A stretch of 64,000 bases of DNA from Candidatus Magasanikiibacteriota bacterium (GTDB lineage: Bacteria; Patescibacteriota; Patescibacteriia; Magasanikbacterales; 2-02-FULL-50-9b). Numbering within the stretch: position 1 is the first letter of the stretch; every line of letters begins with the position of its first letter. A program made the translations under genes and the position numbers. The notes under the pieces were generated by a model that was not told the DNA's origin, made no database searches, and worked only from the letters and a program-made list of their open reading frames with translations. Positions 24,998 to 58,514 of this stretch are shown here, piece by piece. The stretch lies in contig CAITMK010000012.1 in assembly GCA_903893485.1 (NCBI GenBank), positions 18,708 to 82,707 on the forward strand. The letters run 5' to 3'.

Positions 24998-25059
24998 TAC
25001 AGTGGATAGTACGCTGGCCTCCGAAGCTGGAAACACAGGTTCGACTCCTGTCGGGCGCA
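24988..25059 (+). tRNA. tRNA-Arg (anticodon CCG)
   Basis: Cloverleaf by eye: acceptor GCGCTCG/CGGGCGC (one T·G pair), D-arm GTAC..GTAC, anticodon loop CTCCGAA, T-arm ACAGGTTCGACTCCTGT. The 5' end overlaps the last codons of the upstream CDS. Confidence 0.75.
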
Positions 25060-25062
25060 AAT

Positions 25063-25092
25063 AAAAAATCCTACGTTGGTAGGATTTTTTAT
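25063..25092. terminator. bidirectional intrinsic terminator aaaaaatcctac-gttg-gtaggatttttt
   Basis: Perfect stem with A-run 5' and T-run 3'. Confidence 0.8.
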
Positions 25093-25105
25093 TTGAAGTA
25101 AATTT

Positions 25106-33813: not shown

Positions 33814-34254
33814 CCACATTGACAAAACCCATTTTTTCTGGTGTAATGCGCGGGCTACGAAACCAGGACGAGTGCCCTACGGGGAGGAAAGTCCGGACAC
33901 CCTTTGCGGGGCAACCCGCATCGTCGTGGTGCTGGCTAACGGCCAGGCATTCTGCGGGGTATAAACGACGCGTCGCAAGACGCCCGCGAAAACCTTCTGA
34001 CGGAAAGTGCCACAGAGACAATTAAAGTTTTGACCTCGGTCAATTCCAAAGGTGAAAAGTGAGGTGGTGTACGGGCGCAAGCTCATGCTACACCTCTTTG
34101 CCCGGGCGCGAGTCCGTGGCAGTGGCAAACCCCACCTGGTGCAAGTGCGTATGCACGCATCGAGCGACGTAGTAATACGGCGCCAAGACAGATACTCGTC
34201 ACCGCGCGCCTCAAAACGCACGGGACAAAATCCGGCTTATATGGTTTTGTAGTG
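33814..34254 (+). ncRNA. rnpB: RNase P RNA (bacterial type A-like)
   Basis: Universally conserved P4 segments GGGAGGAAAGTCCGGAC (33883-33899) and ACAAAATCCGGCTTAT near the 3' end. 5'/3' termini can pair as P1 (ccacattgacaaaacccat / atggttttgtagtg). TGtATACC box upstream. Confidence 0.8.
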
Positions 34255-34282
34255 AAATCCGCCTTCGGGCGGATTTTGATTT
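34255..34282 (+). terminator. terminator after rnpB (aaatccgcc-ttcg-ggcggatttt)
   Basis: Perfect 8-bp stem with tetraloop and T-run. Confidence 0.75.
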
Positions 34283-34970: not shown

Positions 34971-35477
34971 ATGAAGGAGCTCTTTGACAAAAATAATCCA
35001 AGCACACTTGTGAGCGAAAATTTTTCGTGGGATGAATTCGAAGCCCGGCATGTTGATTCTGTTCGGCCGCCTGTAAAACTTTCAAAACACGAGCTTGCCG
35101 ATCTTGAAGCGCAATCCGAGAGCTTAGAAACTGAAGAAGCAAAATTAGTTGCTCAAATTAAGGATCCACATTTTGTGCAAAACATGGTGGAACGTGAAAT
35201 TGAATCAGCCACCAAAGAAATTGCAGTCGTGGTCGCTGAAATGGAAAAAATAAAAAAGCAGCAATCAATTTTAGGACGTTTATTAAAACGTGATTTGCCA
35301 CCAGAATATGAACGCCTCGAGGAACATTTTTTTCATTTGCAAAGTAAACTTATTTTGCTAGATGGCAAACGATTACACCCCGATGTGGTGCATGTGGGAA
35401 CCATGCGCGCACTTAAATCGGTACGCGAAAAAATCGCACGTATTGCGCTGCTCAAAAAAGAAATCGAACACTTTTAG
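34971..35477 (+). CDS. hypothetical coiled-coil protein (168 aa)
   Basis: TGtTATACTG box 10 nt upstream of the ATG, so likely leaderless. Confidence 0.5.
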   Translation: MKELFDKNNPSTLVSENFSWDEFEARHVDSVRPPVKLSKHELADLEAQSESLETEEAKLVAQIKDPHFVQNMVEREIESATKEIAVVVAEMEKIKKQQSILGRLLKRDLPPEYERLEEHFFHLQSKLILLDGKRLHPDVVHVGTMRALKSVREKIARIALLKKEIEHF

Positions 35478-36430
35478 ATAAGTCCCAATGCGCCGCGAAC
35501 CTCGGACATTGTTTTTTGTGCGCGAGCACTTGCAGCGGCGCGGCCCATTTCCAAAACTTCGGTAATGCGCGCGTCGGTAATTTCTTCGCGGCGAGCGCGA
35601 AAATCTGCAAAATAATTTGCAATCAAATCAGCGAGCGTATCTTTCAGATCTACATTTTTTAACGTGCCGGCTGCAAATTCTGCAGACAATTTTTGGTGCG
35701 TACCATTGGCATCAAAAAGTTGTGCGAGTCCTAACAAATTTTGTACGCCAACTTCGTCGGTCACGGCTTTGCGCATTTTATCGTGAATCGAATCTGAGTC
35801 GTCGGTCAAATAAATACATGATTTGTCGCCATGTGATTTTGACATTTTTTTTGTTGGTTCAGCGAGCGACATAACGCGTGGCGTTTGGGTGAGCAGCGCT
35901 TGTGGTTCGGGGAAGAGTACACTAAATTTATTGTTAAACTTTTTTGCAATCACGCGTGCAAGTTCCACATGCTGCACCTGATCTTCGCCAACAGGAATTT
36001 GATGTGGTTTGTATAATAAAATATCCGCGGCCATGAGCACTGGATATGTGTACAAGCCGGCGTTAATATTTTCTGCGTGGCGCGCTGCCTTATCTTTAAA
36101 TTGCGTCATTTTATCGAGCTCGGCCAGGGGAGTCAGCGTTAAGAAAATCCAACAAAGTTCGGAATGTTCTGGCACATGCGACTGCACAAATAAATTTGAT
36201 TTTGTAGGATCAATGCCAAGCGCCAAAAGATCGCGTACCAAATTGCGAACCATTTTTTGTTTTTGTGCCGGGTCAAAATCAACCGTAAGCGAATGCAAAT
36301 CTGGAATAAAATAAAAACGTTCAAGGCCTGGATCGGCTTGCATGTCCACCCAATTTTTAACCGCGCCCAAATAATTACCAATATGCATGCTGCCGGTTGG
36401 CTGGATTCCAGAAATGATGACGTTTTTCAT
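35474..36430 (-). CDS. trpS: tryptophan--tRNA ligase
   Basis: GIQPTGSMHIGNY HIGH motif and KMSKS motif. The ORF-track 620-aa reading is an upstream extension antisense to cassette E. Confidence 0.85.
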   Translation of the reverse strand: MKNVIISGIQPTGSMHIGNYLGAVKNWVDMQADPGLERFYFIPDLHSLTVDFDPAQKQKMVRNLVRDLLALGIDPTKSNLFVQSHVPEHSELCWIFLTLTPLAELDKMTQFKDKAARHAENINAGLYTYPVLMAADILLYKPHQIPVGEDQVQHVELARVIAKKFNNKFSVLFPEPQALLTQTPRVMSLAEPTKKMSKSHGDKSCIYLTDDSDSIHDKMRKAVTDEVGVQNLLGLAQLFDANGTHQKLSAEFAAGTLKNVDLKDTLADLIANYFADFRARREEITDARITEVLEMGRAAASARAQKTMSEVRGALGLI

Positions 36431-36461
36431 AGTAGGAGGATTATAGCGGATGCGGCGGATC

Positions 36462-36490
36462 TTGACAAAACCGCTAAAACATGGTATGCT
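36462..36490 (+). promoter_or_regulatory. strong sigma70-like promoter gatcTTGACAAAA-17-TGgTATGCT for cassette E
   Basis: Consensus -35, 17-nt spacer, extended -10, followed by a ~95-nt leader with a hairpin. Confidence 0.55.
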
Positions 36491-36583
36491 GCTCGGTCTA
36501 GTTGAAAAGGGCTTTCCTAGCGGAAAGATTAGGCTTGTGGCAGATAAGTATTTGCTGCAAAACCCTCGTGATCGGAGGACAAG

Positions 36584-37291
36584 ATGAATGAGAAAAACTC
36601 GGAAAAGCGGTACGTTGTCGCGGCTTTGTTGCGGCAGGTTTTGGGCCTCGGGCCGAATGACCTGACGGCAAAAATGCTGCTGGCGACGGCCATGACGCAG
36701 ACGCAAGCCGCAGTGTTCGCCGAGGCGGTGCATCCGAATTTCCCGCGTTGGGCTGGCCGCTCGACCCGCGATTTCGCGGACTCGTGTGGTCCGGACGCGC
36801 ATTTCAAGGGCGAGACGGACCTGATGAAGGTCCTGGTCTCGGAGGACCTGAATAAGGCCATGCTGATCGACATCGGCTGGCGGCTGGGCACGGTGATCGT
36901 TCCGATGCCGGGCAAGCGCGAGCGGGAGAGCCTGCACGACCTGTTCAAGCACTTCATGGTCACGGACGAAGAGCTCGATCGGCCGAACATCGCTGCGATG
37001 GCGGCGGCTGGTGCTCAGGTTCCCCGCGATCGTGCGACTCCGCCGGCGCCGACCAAGGCGAGCCAAGTGGCACGCGCCAATCAGGCGGTCGTGCGCAAGG
37101 ACATTCTCGCGGGCAAGCACATGCCGTCGGGCGATGCTGGCTTTGGCGGTGCGTCCAACGAGCCGCGCGGCGATCATCGCGGTCGGCGTGCGCGTCTCGA
37201 AGAAGAGCAGCGCATGCGTCAGCGCGGCAAGCCGGCTGAAGGCACGGGCAAGCACTCGGCGAAGCGCAAGCAGGGCGGCGGTCGCGGTTAG
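36584..37291 (+). CDS. hypothetical protein (235 aa) with basic disordered C-terminal tail, GC-rich cassette E
   Basis: GGAGGA Shine-Dalgarno 5 nt upstream. ~66% GC. C-terminal ~70 aa are Arg/Lys/Gly-rich. Confidence 0.5.
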   Translation: MNEKNSEKRYVVAALLRQVLGLGPNDLTAKMLLATAMTQTQAAVFAEAVHPNFPRWAGRSTRDFADSCGPDAHFKGETDLMKVLVSEDLNKAMLIDIGWRLGTVIVPMPGKRERESLHDLFKHFMVTDEELDRPNIAAMAAAGAQVPRDRATPPAPTKASQVARANQAVVRKDILAGKHMPSGDAGFGGASNEPRGDHRGRRARLEEEQRMRQRGKPAEGTGKHSAKRKQGGGRG

Positions 37292-37312
37292 CGCAAACGT
37301 GCGCGGCCAATC

Positions 37313-37378
37313 GGCGTACAACATAGAGACTCGCACAGAAATTTCGTGCTTGAGACTCTGGTTGTACGCTGTTTTTTA
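37313..37378 (+). terminator. long-hairpin intrinsic terminator after cassette E
   Basis: gtacaacatagagactc...gagactctggttgtac stem followed by gctgtttttt. Confidence 0.6.
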
Positions 37379-37439
37379 TTTGACTGAAAAATGTAATTAC
37401 ACTAGGATTGATGAGGTTTCGCAACTTTTGGAGGATGTG

Positions 37440-38249
37440 ATGAAACAAGCTCAGATTAGGGATGATTTGCAACAAGCGTATTTGGAAACAATTGTGCTGG
37501 CACAACTGCTCGATGAAGGGTTTATTGGGCCGGCGAACTTGCTTCTTCGAGTTTTTGGTGCGTGCAAGGTGCCGCACAAAAACGCGTGGAGTGGTACGTT
37601 CGGAAATTCGCAGCTCTTTCAATTTGGTACAAATGGCCGTGCCCTGCGTTTGACCTTTACCACTACAATAACTGAAGCCAGTCTGATTCTGGACTGGACT
37701 TCAGATTATCAGGCGACAGAGCAGGACGTGGACCTGTGGTCACAGCGCGTGGAGCTCGGTTACGTCAGGTCTCGTGGTAAGTGGTTTTTTGAGACGAACC
37801 TCTCTGCCGACGGCTTTGGGGAATGGTTCGGTCGTCATGGTTCGCGCCTTCCAATTCCGGATTGGCATCACGACGATCCCATGCCCTGGCTTGCAATCAA
37901 CGCGGTCACACGTGGTTTCTTGCCCAAGAGGCCGGAAAGATTTGCACGCGCAATGGTCATGATTTTTTTGGAGGGAAATCAGACTGCGGATCGGTATCAA
38001 GCTGATCCGCTTACGGTGAGCGAGGCTACTGTTCTGAAGTCCATCGCGCATGCAGTCATGAATGGTAATCGGTGGATGGTTGTTCGGACGCGCGCCGGCA
38101 GACGTCTGGATTCGCAAGACGCACGGGATGCCCTTGATGTAATTATGGGGATCAAACCGCCTTTGGAGTGCTCCAGAGATTTGCTCGAATTCGTCAAGAT
38201 GATCTGTGGCGCTGCTGGCGACGCAAGCTTCGGCGGCCGCATTGTTTGA
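37440..38249 (+). CDS. hypothetical protein (270 aa), cassette F, tandem with E
   Basis: TTGACT-17-TAGGAT promoter at ~37380-37410. GGAGGA Shine-Dalgarno 5 nt before the ATG at 37440. ~53% GC. No recognisable motifs. Confidence 0.5.
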   Translation: MKQAQIRDDLQQAYLETIVLAQLLDEGFIGPANLLLRVFGACKVPHKNAWSGTFGNSQLFQFGTNGRALRLTFTTTITEASLILDWTSDYQATEQDVDLWSQRVELGYVRSRGKWFFETNLSADGFGEWFGRHGSRLPIPDWHHDDPMPWLAINAVTRGFLPKRPERFARAMVMIFLEGNQTADRYQADPLTVSEATVLKSIAHAVMNGNRWMVVRTRAGRRLDSQDARDALDVIMGIKPPLECSRDLLEFVKMICGAAGDASFGGRIV

Positions 38250-38336
38250 GGAAAACCAAAAACGCACCCCCGTTTGAGTCGGCCAAAATTTCTGGCGATT
38301 CGCGGGCGGTGCGTCTTTTATTTTGCAATTATTTTT

Positions 38337-40439
38337 TTAGACCTCAATGATTACGGGCAACACCATTGGGCGTCGCTTGGTTTGATTGAACAAGAATTGT
38401 CCAACATCATTGCGGATGCGTGTTTTGATGTATTCATCAAACGCAGGGGATTTGTGATCCGATTCGTCCATGATTTTTTGAACGAGCGCGCGTGTTTTGT
38501 CCAAAATTTCCTGGTTATCTTTGATAAGAATAAACCCACGAGAAATAATGTCCGGTGCGCCGATGAGCGCGCCCGATGATTCTTCGATGGTTGCAATAAC
38601 CACGAGCATACCGTCTTGCGACATTTCCATGCGATCGCGCAGAATTACTTCTGACACATCGCCAACGCCAAGGCCATCAACCATAACATATTCTGCAGGA
38701 TGACGTTCTTCGGTAAGGCGGCCGCCGCTTACATCGAATTGCACGACTTGGCCGTTATCGGCAATGAAAATATTTTCTTTTTCAACACCAACCGCTGCAG
38801 CAAGACGGCCGTGAGCCGCAAGCATAAAGCGGTTGCCATGAATTGGCATGAAATGTTTTGGCTTGGTAAGGCGCAACATTAATTTGAGATCTTCTTGTTT
38901 TGCGTGACCGCCGGCGTGCACATCCATGTGCACCGAATGCACCACGTTTGCACCATGGCGAACCAACGTGTCTTTGAGGCGTTGAACACTGCGTTCATTA
39001 CCTGGAACAACTGATGAAGAGAAAATCACGGTGTCATTGTCTTCCAATTTAAGGAAACGATGTTCGCCGGTTGCAATGCGCATGAGCGCCGCTTTTTCTT
39101 CGCCTTGTGCGCCAGTACACAAAATAAGTAAGTTTTCTGGGCGATATTTGTTGTAATCGTTTTCATCGATGATGGTGCCTGGTTTGAACTGCAAGTAGCC
39201 AAGTTCATGAGCAAGATCAACGTTTTTTTGCATTGAACGACCCTGAATTAAAACCTTGCGGCCATACTTTTCGGCAAGCGCCAAAATGATTTGCACGCGA
39301 GTTAAAAGGGAAGAGAAAGTACCAACAATAATGCGGCTTTCTGCGTTGCCGATTACGCGATCAAGTTCGTTATACACAACTTGTTCTGAAATTTGGTGAC
39401 CTGGAATGTCTGCGGCGGTTGAATCTGACAAAAGTGCCAAAACACCTTTTGAGCCATACATTGCAATGCGGCCAAGATCTGCTGGCTCTTCGTTCACTGG
39501 GGTGAAATCGAATTTGAAGTCACCGGTAATAAGAACTGGGCCAAATGGTGTGTGAATTGCAACACCAAACGCATCGGAAATGGTGTGGTTAATGTGGAAC
39601 GGTTCAAAGATAAAGTTTTTACCCAAATGAAAACGTTCGTCGGCGTGCTGCACAATTACCATGTTTAATTTTGGCAAATGTGGATATTCTTCGTGGCGTG
39701 CGCGAACGATACCGGCGGTTAATGGCGCGGTATAAATTGGCGGATTGCCAATTTTTGGGAGCACGTGTGAAATTGCACCAACGTGGTCCAAATGGCCGTG
39801 AGTGATAATGACACCGCGAATATTTTTTTCGCGACCCTTAAAGGTTGCAACATTTGGAATAATGTAGTCGATGCCTGGCATGCCTTCTTCGGGGAACATA
39901 AGGCCGACGTCAACGATAATAATATCGTCGCCGCATTCCAAAACGGTACAGTTGCGGCCAATTTCTTCCAAGCCGCCAAGTGCGTAAATTTTAAGTTTCA
40001 AATCTGAGTCTGCGGTTGGGGCAACGAGTGGTTCAAAATAAACCGCTTCACGGTCGCCACGTTGAACATCATAACCCGCTGGAATTGGGGTGTTGAAATC
40101 TGGAGCGTTGCGTGGGCGCATAACGCCAGCTGCTGCATGAAATGCTGAACGTTTTTGGATAATTGGTAAGCCTCCAACGCGTGCGGTTGGACCGCTTTGC
40201 TGCTGATTGCCATAAGCTGGGCGTGAAGCAGCACCGCCACGCATAGGTGGGCGGTTTGAACGCTGAAACGGTGGGCGTCCACCAATCATTGGAGGGCGAC
40301 CATCGGGGCGCGCTGGTGTGGCAGGCATGCCTGAATTATTGAAGCGGCGAGGGCCACCCATAGGTGGACGTCCCTGGTTTGGGCCACGACGAAGTGGCGG
40401 CGGTGCCATGTTTGGCGACGCTGATACTGGATCTGTCAT
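38337..40439 (-). CDS. rnj: ribonuclease J (beta-CASP metallo-beta-lactamase RNase) with ~180-aa Arg/Gly/Pro-rich N-terminal extension
   Basis: HGHLDHVGA zinc motif, beta-CASP and C-terminal domains. N-terminus is rich in RPPMGGPRR / GGRPPF repeats. Confidence 0.8.
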   Translation of the reverse strand: MTDPVSASPNMAPPPLRRGPNQGRPPMGGPRRFNNSGMPATPARPDGRPPMIGGRPPFQRSNRPPMRGGAASRPAYGNQQQSGPTARVGGLPIIQKRSAFHAAAGVMRPRNAPDFNTPIPAGYDVQRGDREAVYFEPLVAPTADSDLKLKIYALGGLEEIGRNCTVLECGDDIIIVDVGLMFPEEGMPGIDYIIPNVATFKGREKNIRGVIITHGHLDHVGAISHVLPKIGNPPIYTAPLTAGIVRARHEEYPHLPKLNMVIVQHADERFHLGKNFIFEPFHINHTISDAFGVAIHTPFGPVLITGDFKFDFTPVNEEPADLGRIAMYGSKGVLALLSDSTAADIPGHQISEQVVYNELDRVIGNAESRIIVGTFSSLLTRVQIILALAEKYGRKVLIQGRSMQKNVDLAHELGYLQFKPGTIIDENDYNKYRPENLLILCTGAQGEEKAALMRIATGEHRFLKLEDNDTVIFSSSVVPGNERSVQRLKDTLVRHGANVVHSVHMDVHAGGHAKQEDLKLMLRLTKPKHFMPIHGNRFMLAAHGRLAAAVGVEKENIFIADNGQVVQFDVSGGRLTEERHPAEYVMVDGLGVGDVSEVILRDRMEMSQDGMLVVIATIEESSGALIGAPDIISRGFILIKDNQEILDKTRALVQKIMDESDHKSPAFDEYIKTRIRNDVGQFLFNQTKRRPMVLPVIIEV

Positions 40440-40816
40440 AGGAGTGTTAAATTGATTTCTTTCTCTTTTCGTGGACACGCGTCGCATTCTCCTGCGAGAA
40501 TGCGCGCTCGGCCCCGGTTCGCCAGTTTTGCTTCGCAAAACACCATGCTGGCTCACCTGCGGATGGTCCACTAAAACAGAAAGAAATCGATTTTAGTGAG
40601 TATGAGTGATTAAATTTTTGAAATAGTGCTGAACTGGTCAAGTAAAAAAGGTGTGTCGCAAGGTTTATAAAAATCTATTGTGAGGGACCATCCGCAGCCT
40701 GAGCGGGCCGGAGTTTTGGCACGTAGGGCCAAAACGAGCGAGGGCGAGGCTGAGTGCAAATTCCCGCCGGGGAATTTGCCACGTGTCCTGAACATTAGAT
40801 TTTTATAAACCGGCTT
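40440..40816 (-). promoter_or_regulatory. long structured leader/spacer between tRNA-Leu and rnj, with interleaved inverted repeats
   Basis: IR1 ggtttataaaaatct / agatttttataaacc and IR2 ctgcggatggtcc / ggaccatccgcag are arranged 1a-2a-1b-2b. Several perfect local hairpins are also present. Confidence 0.4.
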
Positions 40817-40903
40817 TGGTGCCGCGGGCGGGACTTGAACCCGCACACTCTTGCGAGCGCTAGCACCTGAAGCTAGTGTGTCTGCCAATTTCACCACCGC
40901 GGC
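40817..40903 (-). tRNA. tRNA-Leu (anticodon CAG), long variable arm
   Basis: Acceptor GCCGCGG/CCGCGGC, anticodon stem CTAGC/GCTAG with loop TTCAGGT, T-arm GCGGGTTCAAGTCCCGC, encoded CCA. Confidence 0.8.
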
Positions 40904-40967
40904 AGGGAGTGGATAGGAAACAAAAGTAGACCAAACTATAGCATACCAAGGTCGGATTTGTCAATTA

Positions 40968-42683
40968 TCACTTCTTAACCTGTTTGGTCGAAATAAACCA
41001 ACTGGTGATATTTTGAAAACGTTCGTCAGCGTTAACACCTGGGGGAACCGTAACGCCTTGGACTTTTTGGGCCACAAAATATTCGTATACTGGTTGGTAC
41101 AAAAATATAGCTGGGGTATCGGCAACAATGCGGTTCGAAATTTTCTTTAATAAAGTGGCGCGTGTGGCGGGGGCGGGCTCAGAAAGTAATGATTGGAGCC
41201 ATGCGTCAACTTCGCTCATTTGGTAACGCGCATAGTTTACGCCATCATCGGCGCTGCCCGTGGAATTCCAGTAAGGATAGGCGCTATTTGGCGTTTCGTA
41301 GGATTGGCCAGCAAGTAGCATATCCTGAGTGGCTGCGTCTTGTGGCGCATTTTCTAAATCAACGGTGCGTGTGGCAACGGGCAATCCAATTGCTTTTAAA
41401 TTTTCAACAATTTGATTCGCTGCATTTACAAGCGCAGCTGAACTTGGAACGCCCAAAGACAGCGGCGTTGTGGGTAGTTTAACATTAGCTTTTTTTAGCA
41501 GCGCCAACGCATTGGCGGTGTTCATATCCGGAAGTGCTGCTAAGTCGCCACCAATAATTGAAGCCGGAAAAGGTTCACGCGCTGGCACACCATTACTTTT
41601 TAAAGCATTTTTAACAATTGCGGTGCGATCGATGGCAAGTGCAATTGCATCGCGCAAATCCGGGTTTTTAAATAATGGATTTTTTGATGGATTGAAAAAT
41701 AAACTTACAACGGTTGGTGGCGTAATTTCGTAGCGTTTTACGTCGTGCTTAAAAATGGTGTCATCAGCGCTTGGATCGAAAGCGGTAAATGCGTCCACGG
41801 TGCGACTGCGAAATAAATCCGCGGCAGTATCAGCGTCGGGCGCAAAACGAAACGTAAGCTCTTCAATGTACGCCGGTTTTGGTTTGAAATCCGAAAACAC
41901 ATCAAACGTCATGCTTTGTAAAAAGCCACCCGCATCCGCAGTTGCGCTTTCGAATTGAAACGGTCCAGATCCAACGGGTTTAAGATTTAATGAATCGGTT
42001 CGCATGTGCGTTGGGTCAACATTTTTCCAAATATGTTCTGGGATGATGCCTACATGCAAAAGCGCAGGTAAATCTGGCATGCTATGCGCGACTGAAATTT
42101 GTACGGTACCATCGGCAGCGGCAACCGCGGTAATTTTTTGCGCCGCGGGCTGCCATGGGCTGCCAACCGCGGTGTTTTGCATTGCTTGAATGGTAAATAA
42201 AACATCTTGCGCCGTAATTGCAGCACCATCGTGCCATTCATGATCGCCAAGCGTAATAGTTGCGCGCGTTAAGGTGCTATTAAATTTGCACGTTGCAAGC
42301 GCAGGGCCAGCATCGGCGCACAAAGGCAAAAATAAAACGTTGGTGAGCGACAGGTCAATGTCTGTTGCGGCAAAAAGAGGATTAATATTTTGCGGCTCGC
42401 CAACGAGCGCTTCTTTAAAAGTGCCGCCAGTGGTTGGCACCGTAACCATATTAAATCGTTGAAATGACCAAAAAAGGCCAATCACTGAAATAATGGCAAG
42501 TGCTGATGCGCCGGAAAAAACTAGTCGCTCCCATTTGCTGAGAAACATGTCCAAATGGGCAAGCTGTTGGCGCGAAGGGAAAAATTTTTCATGGCGCGCA
42601 TGAAAAACAGAGCGGTCAAGACGCGTCATACGCTGCCGCACAAAGGTATCGTAAATTCGTCGTCCTTCTGAAAGAAGGCTCAT
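40968..42683 (-). CDS. ABC transporter substrate-binding protein, family 5 (Opp/Dpp-like), membrane-anchored
   Basis: N-terminal TM anchor LVFSGASALAIISVIGLFW followed by an SBP_bac_5-like domain. Start uncertain (42716, 42683 or 42629). Confidence 0.55.
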   Translation of the reverse strand: MSLLSEGRRIYDTFVRQRMTRLDRSVFHARHEKFFPSRQQLAHLDMFLSKWERLVFSGASALAIISVIGLFWSFQRFNMVTVPTTGGTFKEALVGEPQNINPLFAATDIDLSLTNVLFLPLCADAGPALATCKFNSTLTRATITLGDHEWHDGAAITAQDVLFTIQAMQNTAVGSPWQPAAQKITAVAAADGTVQISVAHSMPDLPALLHVGIIPEHIWKNVDPTHMRTDSLNLKPVGSGPFQFESATADAGGFLQSMTFDVFSDFKPKPAYIEELTFRFAPDADTAADLFRSRTVDAFTAFDPSADDTIFKHDVKRYEITPPTVVSLFFNPSKNPLFKNPDLRDAIALAIDRTAIVKNALKSNGVPAREPFPASIIGGDLAALPDMNTANALALLKKANVKLPTTPLSLGVPSSAALVNAANQIVENLKAIGLPVATRTVDLENAPQDAATQDMLLAGQSYETPNSAYPYWNSTGSADDGVNYARYQMSEVDAWLQSLLSEPAPATRATLLKKISNRIVADTPAIFLYQPVYEYFVAQKVQGVTVPPGVNADERFQNITSWFISTKQVKK

Positions 42684-58336: not shown

Positions 58337-58410
58337 GGGCCAGTAGCTCAGTTGGTGAGAGCACGGTGCTTATAACGCCGGGGTCCTGGGTTCGAGTCCC
58401 AGCTGGCCTA
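58337..58410 (+). tRNA. tRNA-Ile (anticodon UAU)
   Basis: Acceptor GGGCCAG/CTGGCCT (G1·U72), D-arm GCTCAGTTGGTGAGAGC, anticodon stem CGGTG/CGCCG with loop CTTATAA, T-arm CTGGGTTCGAGTCCCAG. CCA not encoded. Confidence 0.7.
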
Positions 58411-58412
58411 TA

Positions 58413-58446
58413 TAAAAATACCACCCATTTGGGTGGTATTTTTATA
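58413..58446. terminator. bidirectional terminator aaaataccaccc-attt-gggtggtatttt
   Basis: Perfect 8-bp stem flanked by A- and T-runs. Confidence 0.8.
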
Positions 58447-58514
58447 TTTGTTTAAGGCTGGGATTCGAAGGGTTGTCGCGCCTCCGCGCGAAGCGAATCC
58501 CAGCAACCACAAAA

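What the first reader, a model, noticed from the sequence alone, without database searches (positions are those of the whole stretch)
38337..40903. RNase J with a ~180-aa Arg/Gly/Pro-rich N-terminal extension, preceded by a 375-nt leader with interleaved inverted repeats and a co-oriented tRNA-Leu
tRNA-Leu(CAG) is followed by a spacer in which two 13-15-bp inverted-repeat pairs are interleaved (1a-2a-1b-2b; plus coords ~40796-40812 / 40661-40677 and 40552-40565 / 40686-40699). This allows mutually exclusive folds or a pseudoknot, an architecture typical of autoregulatory leaders; RNase J would then process its own tRNA-containing transcript. The N-terminal RGG/PRG-like low-complexity region is unusual for bacterial RNase J and could serve RNA binding or condensate formation.
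Basis: seen in the sequence. Interest (0 to 1): 0.55.

Follow-up and report, generated by a model that had tools for sequence, protein, structure and literature searches.

The report
Palindromic repeat copies upstream of RNase J
The inverted repeats in front of this RNase J gene are not a dedicated self-regulating leader but two back-to-back copies of a previously undescribed ~145-base folded repeat that is scattered through the genomes of ultra-small (Patescibacteria) bacteria and even sits in-frame inside essential genes.

Summary
The extension is about 145 aa, not 180, because the true start is ATG 40439.

The autoregulatory-leader interpretation is not supported. The spacer holds two head-to-head copies of a ~145-nt structured element: a ~100-nt GC-rich three-way-junction core plus a closing stem unique to each locus.
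- Repeat pair 1 is the closing stem of copy A.
- Repeat pair 2 is the same core segment present in both inverted copies. That complementarity is not kept in relatives.

A covariance model finds the element at many unrelated loci, and 43 of 49 metagenome loci lack rnj. It occurs in both orientations and in-frame inside ligA, tsaD and other genes, like Rickettsia palindromic elements. Related genomes carry 2, 1 or 0 copies in this same spacer.

Covariation is very strong (94.5% of cells paired, 45 of 47 pairs compensated). Copies on one contig share 89-95% identical cores but unrelated stems. Rfam and the searchable literature do not hold the family.

The disordered basic N-terminal extension is common in Patescibacteria RNase J. 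The tRNA-Leu/rnj adjacency is part of a larger conserved gene block.

The parts
40935..40964 (-). Sigma-70-like promoter (TTGACA-18-TATAGT, TG-extended) upstream of tRNA-Leu
   Evidence: 11 of 12 matches. Near-consensus promoters sit at the same place in relatives (sequences).
40817..40903 (-). tRNA-Leu(CAG), with CCA encoded
40661..40812 (+). Repeat element copy A. Its model orientation is on the + strand, so it is antisense to tRNA-Leu and rnj. It starts 5 nt after the tRNA 3' end.
   Evidence: Model R1 scores 133 bits on the + strand against 24 bits on the - strand. Fold. Alignment.
40594..40660 (.). AT-rich spacer between the two copies. It cannot be aligned between relatives and holds only a weak promoter-like match (TTGACC-16-AAAAAT).
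40449..40593 (-). Repeat element copy B, sense with rnj. It has a 28-nt closing stem whose 3' arm ends 9 nt before the rnj ATG.
   Evidence: Model R1 scores 128 bits..
40685..40697 (-). This is the conserved core segment of copy A (complement of GGACCATCCGCAG).
40557..40569 (-). This is the same core segment (GGACCATCCGCAG) in copy B.
40440..40571 (-). Spurious 5' extension of the rnj open frame, running through copy B. It is not coding.
   Evidence: An in-frame TAA at 40595-40593 is read.
38337..40439 (-). rnj coding sequence, 700 aa
40005..40439 (-). Coding region of the ~145-aa Arg/Pro/Gly-rich, predicted-disordered N-terminal extension of RNase J. It includes a conserved N-terminal motif, V(T/S)ASPxM(P/A)(T/P)PPLRR.

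Best explanation
The tRNA-Leu/rnj spacer is occupied by two inverted, head-to-head copies of a non-coding ~145-nt palindromic repeat element that is dispersed in Patescibacteria genomes.

Each copy has two parts. The first is a conserved ~100-nt GC-rich core that folds into a three-way junction: a bipartite arm with a conserved internal loop (GCGGGC..GG.G / CGAGCGAG) plus a second hairpin. The second is a 17-28 bp closing stem whose sequence is different at every locus.

They are a by-product of the inverted duplication, not a designed switch.

The family behaves like Rickettsia palindromic elements. It is multi-copy, sits in intergenic spacers in either orientation, varies in presence between related genomes, and is tolerated in-frame inside housekeeping genes.

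Inferred, not shown:
- The core is the unit that spreads, and the flanking inverted repeat is created or recruited at each insertion.
- The element folds as a single strand of defined polarity.
- At this locus it is carried on the transcript that starts at the tRNA-Leu promoter. Copy B's stem buries the region just upstream of the rnj start codon, so it probably affects rnj mRNA stability or translation only incidentally.

The RNase J itself is a canonical beta-CASP RNase J with a basic, disordered N-terminal tail that is typical of its phylum.
For: - Copy A (reverse complement) and copy B align over their full length in five genomes.
- Model R1, built from them, finds further copies. Two lie just after the rnj stop codon (L007, L002), one between a dsbA-like gene and secG (L007), and one between the SBP gene and the tRNA promoter (L002).
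- A core-motif scan of metagenomes gave 49 loci with 58 copies. Only 6 of these loci hold rnj.
- Neighbouring genes include recR, iPGM, mgsA, PBPs, pgk, dnaN, an aminoacyl-tRNA synthetase, rmuC, rpsB and rny.
- In-frame insertions: ligA carries a ~47-aa insert relative to E. coli LigA; tsaD carries a ~42-aa insert relative to T. maritima TsaD. Copies also lie within the long open frames of the PMT_2 and TMEM260-like genes.
- 9 of 120 LigA homologs carry the long loop. The DNA of 4 of them still matches R1 at the same site.
- Structure: 94.5% of cells are paired against 35-46% in slid controls, and 45 of 47 pairs show compensatory change. G.U pairs number 101 against 32 A.C.
- Three copies on one 300-kb contig have cores 89-95% identical but unrelated, near-perfect stems. 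Further copies from the same sample reach 98% core identity.
- The tRNA-rnj spacer holds two copies (window, L001, L010, L007, L009, L091, L098, L100), one copy (L132, L006), a degenerate copy (L135) or none (L002, L003).
- Three contigs (L132-L134) start 149 nt before the rnj start, and L132, the one read, begins inside copy A, as is typical of repeats.
Against: - No transposase, target-site duplication or clean filled/empty site pair was found, so mobility is inferred rather than shown.
- Only the two copies occur in the 64-kb window, even with search filters off.
- The A+B pair is retained in at least 8 sampled genomes or contigs.
- Copy B copies show more G.U pairs on the rnj sense strand than on the antisense strand (12 against 4). 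A local function in the rnj 5' UTR therefore cannot be excluded.
- The very strong covariation, also seen inside coding regions, is more than expected for decaying selfish DNA. It suggests a function at the RNA or single-stranded DNA level that is not yet understood.
- The metagenome scan only returned copies that match one chosen core motif.
Confidence: 0.78

Rival explanations
1. One reading: a dedicated autoregulatory rnj leader whose interleaved repeats form mutually exclusive folds or a pseudoknot sensed or cleaved by RNase J.
For: The arms overlap in a 1:2 / 2:3 / 3:4 layout in the window. In the window a full A:B duplex (-123.5 kcal/mol) is close in energy to the two local folds together (-130.7). 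Other RNases (E, III, Y, PNPase) are known to autoregulate through their leaders (PMC4838370, PMC10303841).
Against: The 2:3 pairing is not conserved. The longest perfect A:B complement is 6-11 nt, at other positions, in L001, L010, L007 and L009, and the duplex is far weaker than the local folds in L009 and L007. The element occurs at dozens of loci unrelated to rnj and inside coding regions. The spacer is empty in L002 and L003. The scan reported no terminator-like site within the spacer.
Confidence: 0.05
2. Local co-option (compatible with the best explanation). The old A+B pair now serves the tRNA-Leu/rnj co-transcript. The long stems could act as double-strand RNase processing sites that separate the tRNA from the mRNA. 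Copy B could be a 5' structure that protects rnj mRNA from 5'-exonucleolytic attack or gates ribosome access.
For: The pair is retained in all sampled genomes with at least 76% RNase J identity. Orthologous B cores (56-85% identical) are better conserved than A cores (43-67%). G.U pairs favour the sense strand in B copies, 12 against 4. B's 3' arm ends about 2-28 nt before the ATG in the window, L001, L010, L007 and L009. The same antisense+sense pair exactly fills a tRNA-Leu(GAG)/tRNA-Val spacer (L124).
Against: Related lineages manage with 0 or 1 copy. There are no expression or cleavage data. A head-to-head pair reads the same on both strands, so its arrangement carries no information about direction.
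Confidence: 0.22
3. The family is a functional structured RNA rather than selfish DNA. It could be a protein-binding module, or an intron-like insert that is excised using the closing stem to bring the flanks together.
For: Covariation is extreme in all helices. There is a 3:1 excess of G.U over A.C. Structure is retained in orthologous ligA inserts whose peptide sequences have diverged and partly shifted frame. The core sequence is conserved across distant lineages.
Against: Copies lack their own promoters (9 of 73 weak matches). Orientation relative to neighbouring genes is mixed (11 antisense against 6 sense in tandem contexts). The reading frame is kept open in all 9 long-loop LigA proteins and in tsaD, which would be unnecessary if the insert were spliced out. 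No Rfam family matches.
Confidence: 0.15

Closest known systems
Rickettsia palindromic elements (RPEs)
   Same: Both are about 100-150 bp palindromic, hairpin-forming repeats. Both are multi-copy, found in intergenic DNA and inserted in-frame into unrelated housekeeping genes, adding a peptide segment (PMC10969869 for RPEs; here).
   Different: The host phylum is unrelated. The Patescibacteria element has a conserved three-way-junction core. Its outer stem differs at every copy, even when cores are 89-95% identical on one contig and up to 98% within one sample. Sequence homology to RPEs was not tested. Both orientations can be in-frame (tsaD antisense, ligA sense).
Bacterial MITEs and interspersed palindromic repeats (Correia, ERIC, BOX, REP/REPIN)
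   Same: Both are short, non-coding, dispersed, orientation-independent intergenic repeats with hairpin potential. Both are often co-transcribed with neighbouring genes and show presence/absence differences between relatives.
   Different: No conserved terminal inverted repeats and no target-site duplication were seen. The conserved part is internal and the termini are locus-specific, the reverse of a classical MITE. No partner transposase was identified.
Autoregulatory leaders of ribonuclease genes (rne 5' UTR, rnc and pnp leaders, rny)
   Same: In each case structured RNA lies immediately upstream of a ribonuclease gene.
   Different: Those leaders are gene-specific and conserved with the gene. 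This structure is a generic repeat, absent from the same spacer in relatives and present at many unrelated genes.
N-terminal disordered extension of Helicobacter pylori RNase J
   Same: Both are extensions of about 130-145 aa, predicted to be disordered, placed in front of a canonical RNase J core (PMC10700544).
   Different: There is no sequence alignment between the two extensions (8cgl aligns only from query residue 134). The Patescibacteria tail is Arg/Pro/Gly-rich and varies from 0 to about 155 aa across the phylum. The Helicobacter tail was described as specific to that lineage.

Membership tests
RNase J (beta-CASP metallo-beta-lactamase ribonuclease) | Domain set Lactamase_B + beta-CASP + RMMBL + RNase J C-terminal domain | tested here: met
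   RNase_J_b_CASP 9e-45, RNase_J_C 2e-29, Lactamase_B 3e-11, RMMBL 4e-6.
RNase J (beta-CASP metallo-beta-lactamase ribonuclease) | Full-length similarity to solved RNase J structures and the metal-binding HxHxDH motif | tested here: met
   residues 148-700 align to 6k6s, 3zq4, 5a0t and others, with E-values down to 1e-138. H214, H216, D218 and H219 are invariant in the 32-sequence alignment.
Gene-specific autoregulatory or attenuator leader | Structure conserved with the gene across orthologs | tested here: not met
   The spacer is 42 nt in L002 and 62 nt in L003 with no element. Other relatives carry 1 copy or a degenerate copy. No R1 hits fall in rnj leaders of more distant Patescibacteria.
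Gene-specific autoregulatory or attenuator leader | Conserved mutually exclusive pairings (alternative helices) | tested here: not met
   the 13-nt A:B complement is specific to the window. Relatives have 6-11 nt at other positions.
Gene-specific autoregulatory or attenuator leader | Element restricted to the regulated gene | tested here: not met
   43 of 49 metagenome loci with the element lack rnj. Neighbouring genes are diverse.
RPE-like palindromic element | Multi-copy, dispersed, about 100-150 bp, with hairpin-forming potential | tested here: met
   Three copies lie on one 300-kb contig.
RPE-like palindromic element | In-frame insertions in unrelated protein-coding genes that keep the ORF | tested here: met
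   Insertions in ligA and tsaD are shown against solved homologs. Copies in PMT_2 and TMEM260-like genes lie inside long open frames. Nine long-loop LigA proteins are intact.
RPE-like palindromic element | Sequence homology to Rickettsia RPE families | not tested
The claimed resemblance is in behaviour only.
Classical MITE | Conserved terminal inverted repeats shared by copies | tested here: not met
   Outer stems are 17-42% identical between copies whose cores are 89-98% identical.
Classical MITE | Direct target-site duplication | tested here: not met
   None is visible in 73 copies. One 14-bp direct repeat flanks the L006 copy at some distance and is unexplained.
Classical MITE | Partner autonomous element or transposase | not tested
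   This would need whole-genome co-occurrence analysis.
Any Rfam 15 RNA family | Match to a curated covariance model | tested here: not met
   Only tRNA matched at E<=1 in window 37500-42000, at the gathering threshold in the whole window, and at E<=0.5 in 12 further element loci.

The most novel reading that the evidence does not exclude
The element is a new kind of mobile structured element. Only the ~100-nt three-way-junction core would be copied to new sites. Each insertion would generate its own ~20-bp perfect inverted repeat from the target, for example by target-primed synthesis that snaps back onto the primer strand, instead of a direct target duplication. The result would be a stable hairpin tolerated in UTRs and, in-frame, in essential genes of streamlined Patescibacteria. 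A further possibility is that some copies, such as the A+B pair in front of rnj, have been co-opted for RNA processing or stability.
Probability: 0.3. Interest if true: 0.85.

Novelty: new variant of a known kind. Interest (0 to 1): 0.6.

Why it matters
For the original claim, this removes a false lead. A leader with 'regulatory-looking' interleaved repeats turns out to be two copies of a repeat element.

For genome biology, it brings to light an apparently undescribed, structurally conserved repeat family in the Candidate Phyla Radiation, whose genomes are usually regarded as streamlined and poor in repeats. The family inserts in-frame into essential genes such as DNA ligase and TsaD, a behaviour best known from Rickettsia.

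Its conserved core with copy-specific perfect stems points to an unusual insertion or maintenance mechanism.

Practical consequences:
- The element breaks metagenome assemblies.
- It creates spurious ORF extensions, such as the 744-aa rnj frame here.
- It can mimic riboswitch-like or attenuator-like signals in scans for non-coding RNA.

The work also shows that a disordered basic N-terminal tail on RNase J, so far described as specific to Helicobacter, is widespread in another phylum.

Tried and rejected
- **Known RNA families.** Rfam gave nothing but tRNA and RNase P RNA.
- **Other copies in the window.** Neither blastn nor the covariance model with filters off found any.
- **Independent small-RNA genes.** Rejected, because there is no consistent promoter upstream of copies (9 of 73 weak matches against 4 in the control).
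- **Outer stems as pre-existing terminator hairpins split by the core.** This is attractive for copy A (placed like the hairpins after tRNA-Arg and tRNA-Ile) and for L007 downstream of rnj. It fails as a general rule: arm composition does not fit, and long palindromes are implausible inside ligA or tsaD.
- **One stem arm as native target sequence.**
  - The L084/L124 comparison is ambiguous; L084 may be a deletion remnant.
  - The LigA loop is too variable to decide.
  - The closest pgk relative (77% identity) is too diverged.
- **tRNA-Leu/rnj adjacency as a specific functional link.** Weakened, because the whole dsbA/secG/SBP/tRNA-Leu/rnj/trpS block is conserved.
- **Concerted evolution as the sole reason for identical cores.** Unlikely to be general, because A and B cores about 70 nt apart are only 35-70% identical.
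- **Translation of copy B as part of RNase J.** Rejected: there is an in-frame stop at the 5' edge of B, the frame is closed in L001, and homologs start at the same Met.
- **Literature.** Searches for repeat, MITE or palindromic elements in CPR/Patescibacteria and for RNase J autoregulation returned nothing relevant.
Full report
**1. What is in the window**

tRNA-Leu(CAG) lies at 40817-40903 on the minus strand. A near-consensus promoter, TTGACA-18-TATAGT, precedes it.

Downstream on the same strand is an open frame, 38337-40571, with the full RNase J domain set. The first 44 codons of this frame are not coding:
- An identical 700-aa database protein starts at ATG 40439.
- Close homologs start at the equivalent Met with the same motif: MPQSVTASPSMPTPPLRR against MTDPVSASPNMAPPPLRR here.
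- An in-frame TAA sits at 40595-40593.

The spacer is therefore 377 nt and the N-terminal extension about 145 aa. The organism is a Patescibacteria (CPR) bacterium close to Magasanikbacteria, judging from the source names of homologs.

**2. The N-terminal extension**

- It is 43% Arg+Gly+Pro with net charge +11, and contains RPPM-type repeats.
- AlphaFold gives pLDDT below 50 and no secondary structure for residues 1-131, followed by a confident RNase J fold.
- All solved RNase J structures align only from residue ~148. The full-length H. pylori enzyme aligns from residue 134, so the two extensions are not alignable.
- Among the 120 best homologs, all from CPR-type sources, the median extension is 48.5 aa. 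89 have at least 30 aa and 12 have at least 100 aa. Arg is 13% and Pro 15%, against 6% and 5% in the core.

The tail is thus typical of the phylum and variable in length. It is unusual only against characterised enzymes, where H. pylori is the one precedent and is described there as lineage-specific (PMC10700544). RNA binding or condensate formation is a reasonable inference but was not tested.

**3. Anatomy of the spacer**

Folding gives two independent ~145-150-nt domains.

| Domain | Coordinates | Closing stem |
|---|---|---|

Each domain encloses a GC-rich interior with two perfect hairpins.
- The interior of B is the reverse complement of the interior of A (44 nt at 73%; full-length alignment in five genomes).
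- In relatives the longest perfect A:B complement is 6-11 nt and lies elsewhere.
- In L009 and L007 an A:B duplex is far weaker than the two local folds.

There is therefore no conserved alternative pairing.

**4. Relatives**

| Spacer content | Loci |
|---|---|
| A+B pair, 377-420 nt spacer (RNase J at least 76% identical) | L001, L010, L007, L009 and metagenome loci L091, L098, L100 |
| Empty, 42 nt (72% identical) | L002 |
| Empty, 62 nt (71% identical) | L003, L008 |
| One copy, antisense | L006 |
| Copy A only; L132 begins inside the copy, and contigs L132-L134 all start 149 nt before rnj | L132 |
| Weak, degenerate copy | L135 |

The spacer content is variable. It is not a conserved leader.

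**5. The element family**

*Further copies near rnj.* Covariance model R1, built from the ten A/B copies, is strongly strand-specific: 133 bits against 24 bits. It finds further copies:
- immediately after the rnj stop codon in L007 and L002;
- between a dsbA-like gene and secG in L007;
- between the SBP gene and the tRNA promoter in L002.

*Metagenome copies.* An exact scan of JGI metagenomes with a core motif returned 49 loci, holding 58 model hits.
- Only six of these loci contain rnj.
- The other neighbours are unrelated housekeeping genes.
- Orientation relative to neighbouring genes is mixed.
- Copies lack their own promoters and show no target-site duplication.
- Adjacent pairs are always head-to-head. 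This was seen at the rnj locus and in L124, L106 and L092.

*Structure.* On the 58-copy alignment:
- 94.5% of cells are paired, against 35-46% when partners are slid.
- 45 of 47 pairs show compensatory changes.
- The covariation score is 0.70, against about 0.1 in controls.

The alignment is fitted to the model, which inflates these numbers somewhat, but not to this degree. G.U pairs outnumber A.C mismatches 101 to 32, which points to folding of one defined strand. Rfam has no matching family, and literature searches found no description.

**6. In-frame copies inside genes**

- *ligA.* In L128 the element lies inside ligA. The protein aligns to E. coli LigA in two blocks, residues 7-104 with 5-102 and residues 151-725 with 100-668. 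This leaves a ~47-aa insert just before the KxDG active-site motif, coinciding with the element.
- *tsaD.* In L126 an antisense copy gives a ~42-aa insert in TsaD relative to the T. maritima enzyme.
- *Other genes.* Further copies lie within the long open frames of a PMT_2 glycosyltransferase and a TMEM260-like protein. Sense copies share one frame and encode similar peptides..KVSRR.SGHGVPT.VGTSEAESQA...
- *LigA homologs.* Nine of 120 CPR LigA homologs have an 80-92-aa segment where most have 35 aa. The DNA of four of them still matches R1 at the same site in sense orientation (20-53 bits), each with a different closing stem.

This is the behaviour described for Rickettsia palindromic elements (PMC10969869).

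**7. What moves**

Five copies from one sample share a ~100-nt core (CCTCTCGCAGG...CACGCGGG) at 89-98% identity. Three of them lie on one 300-kb contig, where core identity is 89-95%. Their 19-26-bp closing stems are near-perfect but unrelated in sequence, at 17-42% identity.

By contrast, in the window's clade the A and B cores, about 70 nt apart, are only 35-70% identical, while orthologs are 43-85% identical. These are old insertions without general homogenisation.

My inference is that the core is the copied unit and the flanking inverted repeat is made or recruited at each insertion. A target-primed, snap-back synthesis would produce exactly this layout, but I could not obtain a clean empty site to test it. 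Gene conversion limited to cores remains an alternative.

**8. tRNA-Leu and rnj**

A co-oriented tRNA-Leu(CAG) lies upstream of rnj in 25 of 32 Patescibacteria loci and in none of 45 loci from other phyla. However, the whole block dsbA-like / secG / SBP_bac_5 / tRNA-Leu / rnj / trpS is conserved in the same genomes. The adjacency alone is therefore weak evidence for a specific functional link.

- In short-spacer relatives there is hardly room for a terminator and a promoter, which favours co-transcription.
- In L012 I read, from the spacer sequence, a terminator-like hairpin right after the tRNA and a promoter-like TCGACA-17-TATACT before rnj; no scan was run on that locus.
- In the window, copy A starts 5 nt after the tRNA. 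Only a weak internal promoter-like site exists.

**9. Likely consequence here (inference)**

If the region is transcribed from the tRNA promoter, the RNA carries two very stable domains, about -65 kcal/mol each. The 3' arm of B's stem ends 9 nt before the rnj ATG. It could therefore hinder ribosome access, offer a double-stranded cleavage site, or act as a 5' block to exonucleolytic decay after tRNA processing.

Two observations leave room for local co-option: retention of the pair in at least eight sampled genomes or contigs, and the excess of G.U pairs on the sense strand in B copies (12 against 4). Neither shows RNase J-specific autoregulation.

**10. Verdict**

Its regulatory interpretation is not supported. 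The N-terminal tail is real, conserved and phylum-typical.

The underlying object is a new variant of a known kind: a palindromic repeat like the Rickettsia elements, with a covarying three-way-junction core and copy-specific stems. It is moderately to highly interesting in its own right.

Noticed in passing
window 33856-34255 (+): Bacterial RNase P RNA class A (125.5 bits), about 4 kb from rnj on the opposite strand.
   Followed up: no
window 25058-25095 and 58410-58447: tRNA-Arg and tRNA-Ile are each followed at once by a perfect 17-18 bp AT-rich hairpin (terminator-like). The closing stem of copy A sits at the equivalent position after tRNA-Leu.
   Followed up: partly
window 35474-37336 (-) and 36430-38336: The TrpRS open frame is spuriously extended to 620 aa through a GC-richer region (about 54% GC). 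The ORFs between trpS and rnj (235 and 412 aa) have no Pfam match. Relatives carry different, unannotated genes at this position.
   Followed up: partly
L002 2525-2590; L007 1215-1285: A second, smaller palindromic repeat family (outer stem plus a 'CGCGAGAGGCC.GCAACGCG' core) lies in intergenic DNA of relatives, next to copies of the main element.
   Followed up: no
L140 about 1110-1260: A third hairpin repeat type (AAAAAGAGATCTCTCGA...TCGAGATGA, two copies) lies upstream of pgk in another Patescibacteria contig.
   Followed up: no
L014, L015, L017 (rnj leaders): Another Patescibacteria clade has a different conserved rnj 5' leader (..CCACTTTTCCACTTCTCGC.. and ..CATTCATTTTTATTCGCC..GGCGGCC.TCTTGCCG..). 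It may be a genuine gene-specific leader and deserves its own analysis.
   Followed up: no
L006 2783-2796 and 2982-2995: A 14-bp direct repeat (AAAAATTTATTACG) flanks, at 4 and 21 nt distance, the single element copy in the tRNA-Leu/rnj spacer. It could be an insertion footprint or a slippage product.
   Followed up: partly
LigA homologs P0121-P0240, loop between ENYLG and FYCELKIDG: This loop is a hot spot for length change. It spans 35 aa in most homologs, rising to 92 aa. Variants include tandem peptide duplications (P0130, P0211) and intermediate lengths that may be element remnants.
   Followed up: partly
L124 2034-2500; L084 1108-1459: tRNA-Leu(GAG) and tRNA-Val are separated by an antisense+sense element pair that exactly fills the spacer (6 nt and 1 nt gaps). 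L084 has only the first copy plus what looks like the 3' end of the second.
   Followed up: partly
window 40439-40386 and relatives: The extreme N-terminus of RNase J carries a conserved short motif, V(T/S)ASPxM(P/A)(T/P)PPLRR, in all close relatives down to 64% identity. This suggests a binding motif inside the otherwise variable tail.
   Followed up: partly
L102 2218-2355: One element copy abuts the 3' end of the RNase Y gene (rny). This is probably coincidence, given the diversity of neighbouring genes.
   Followed up: no
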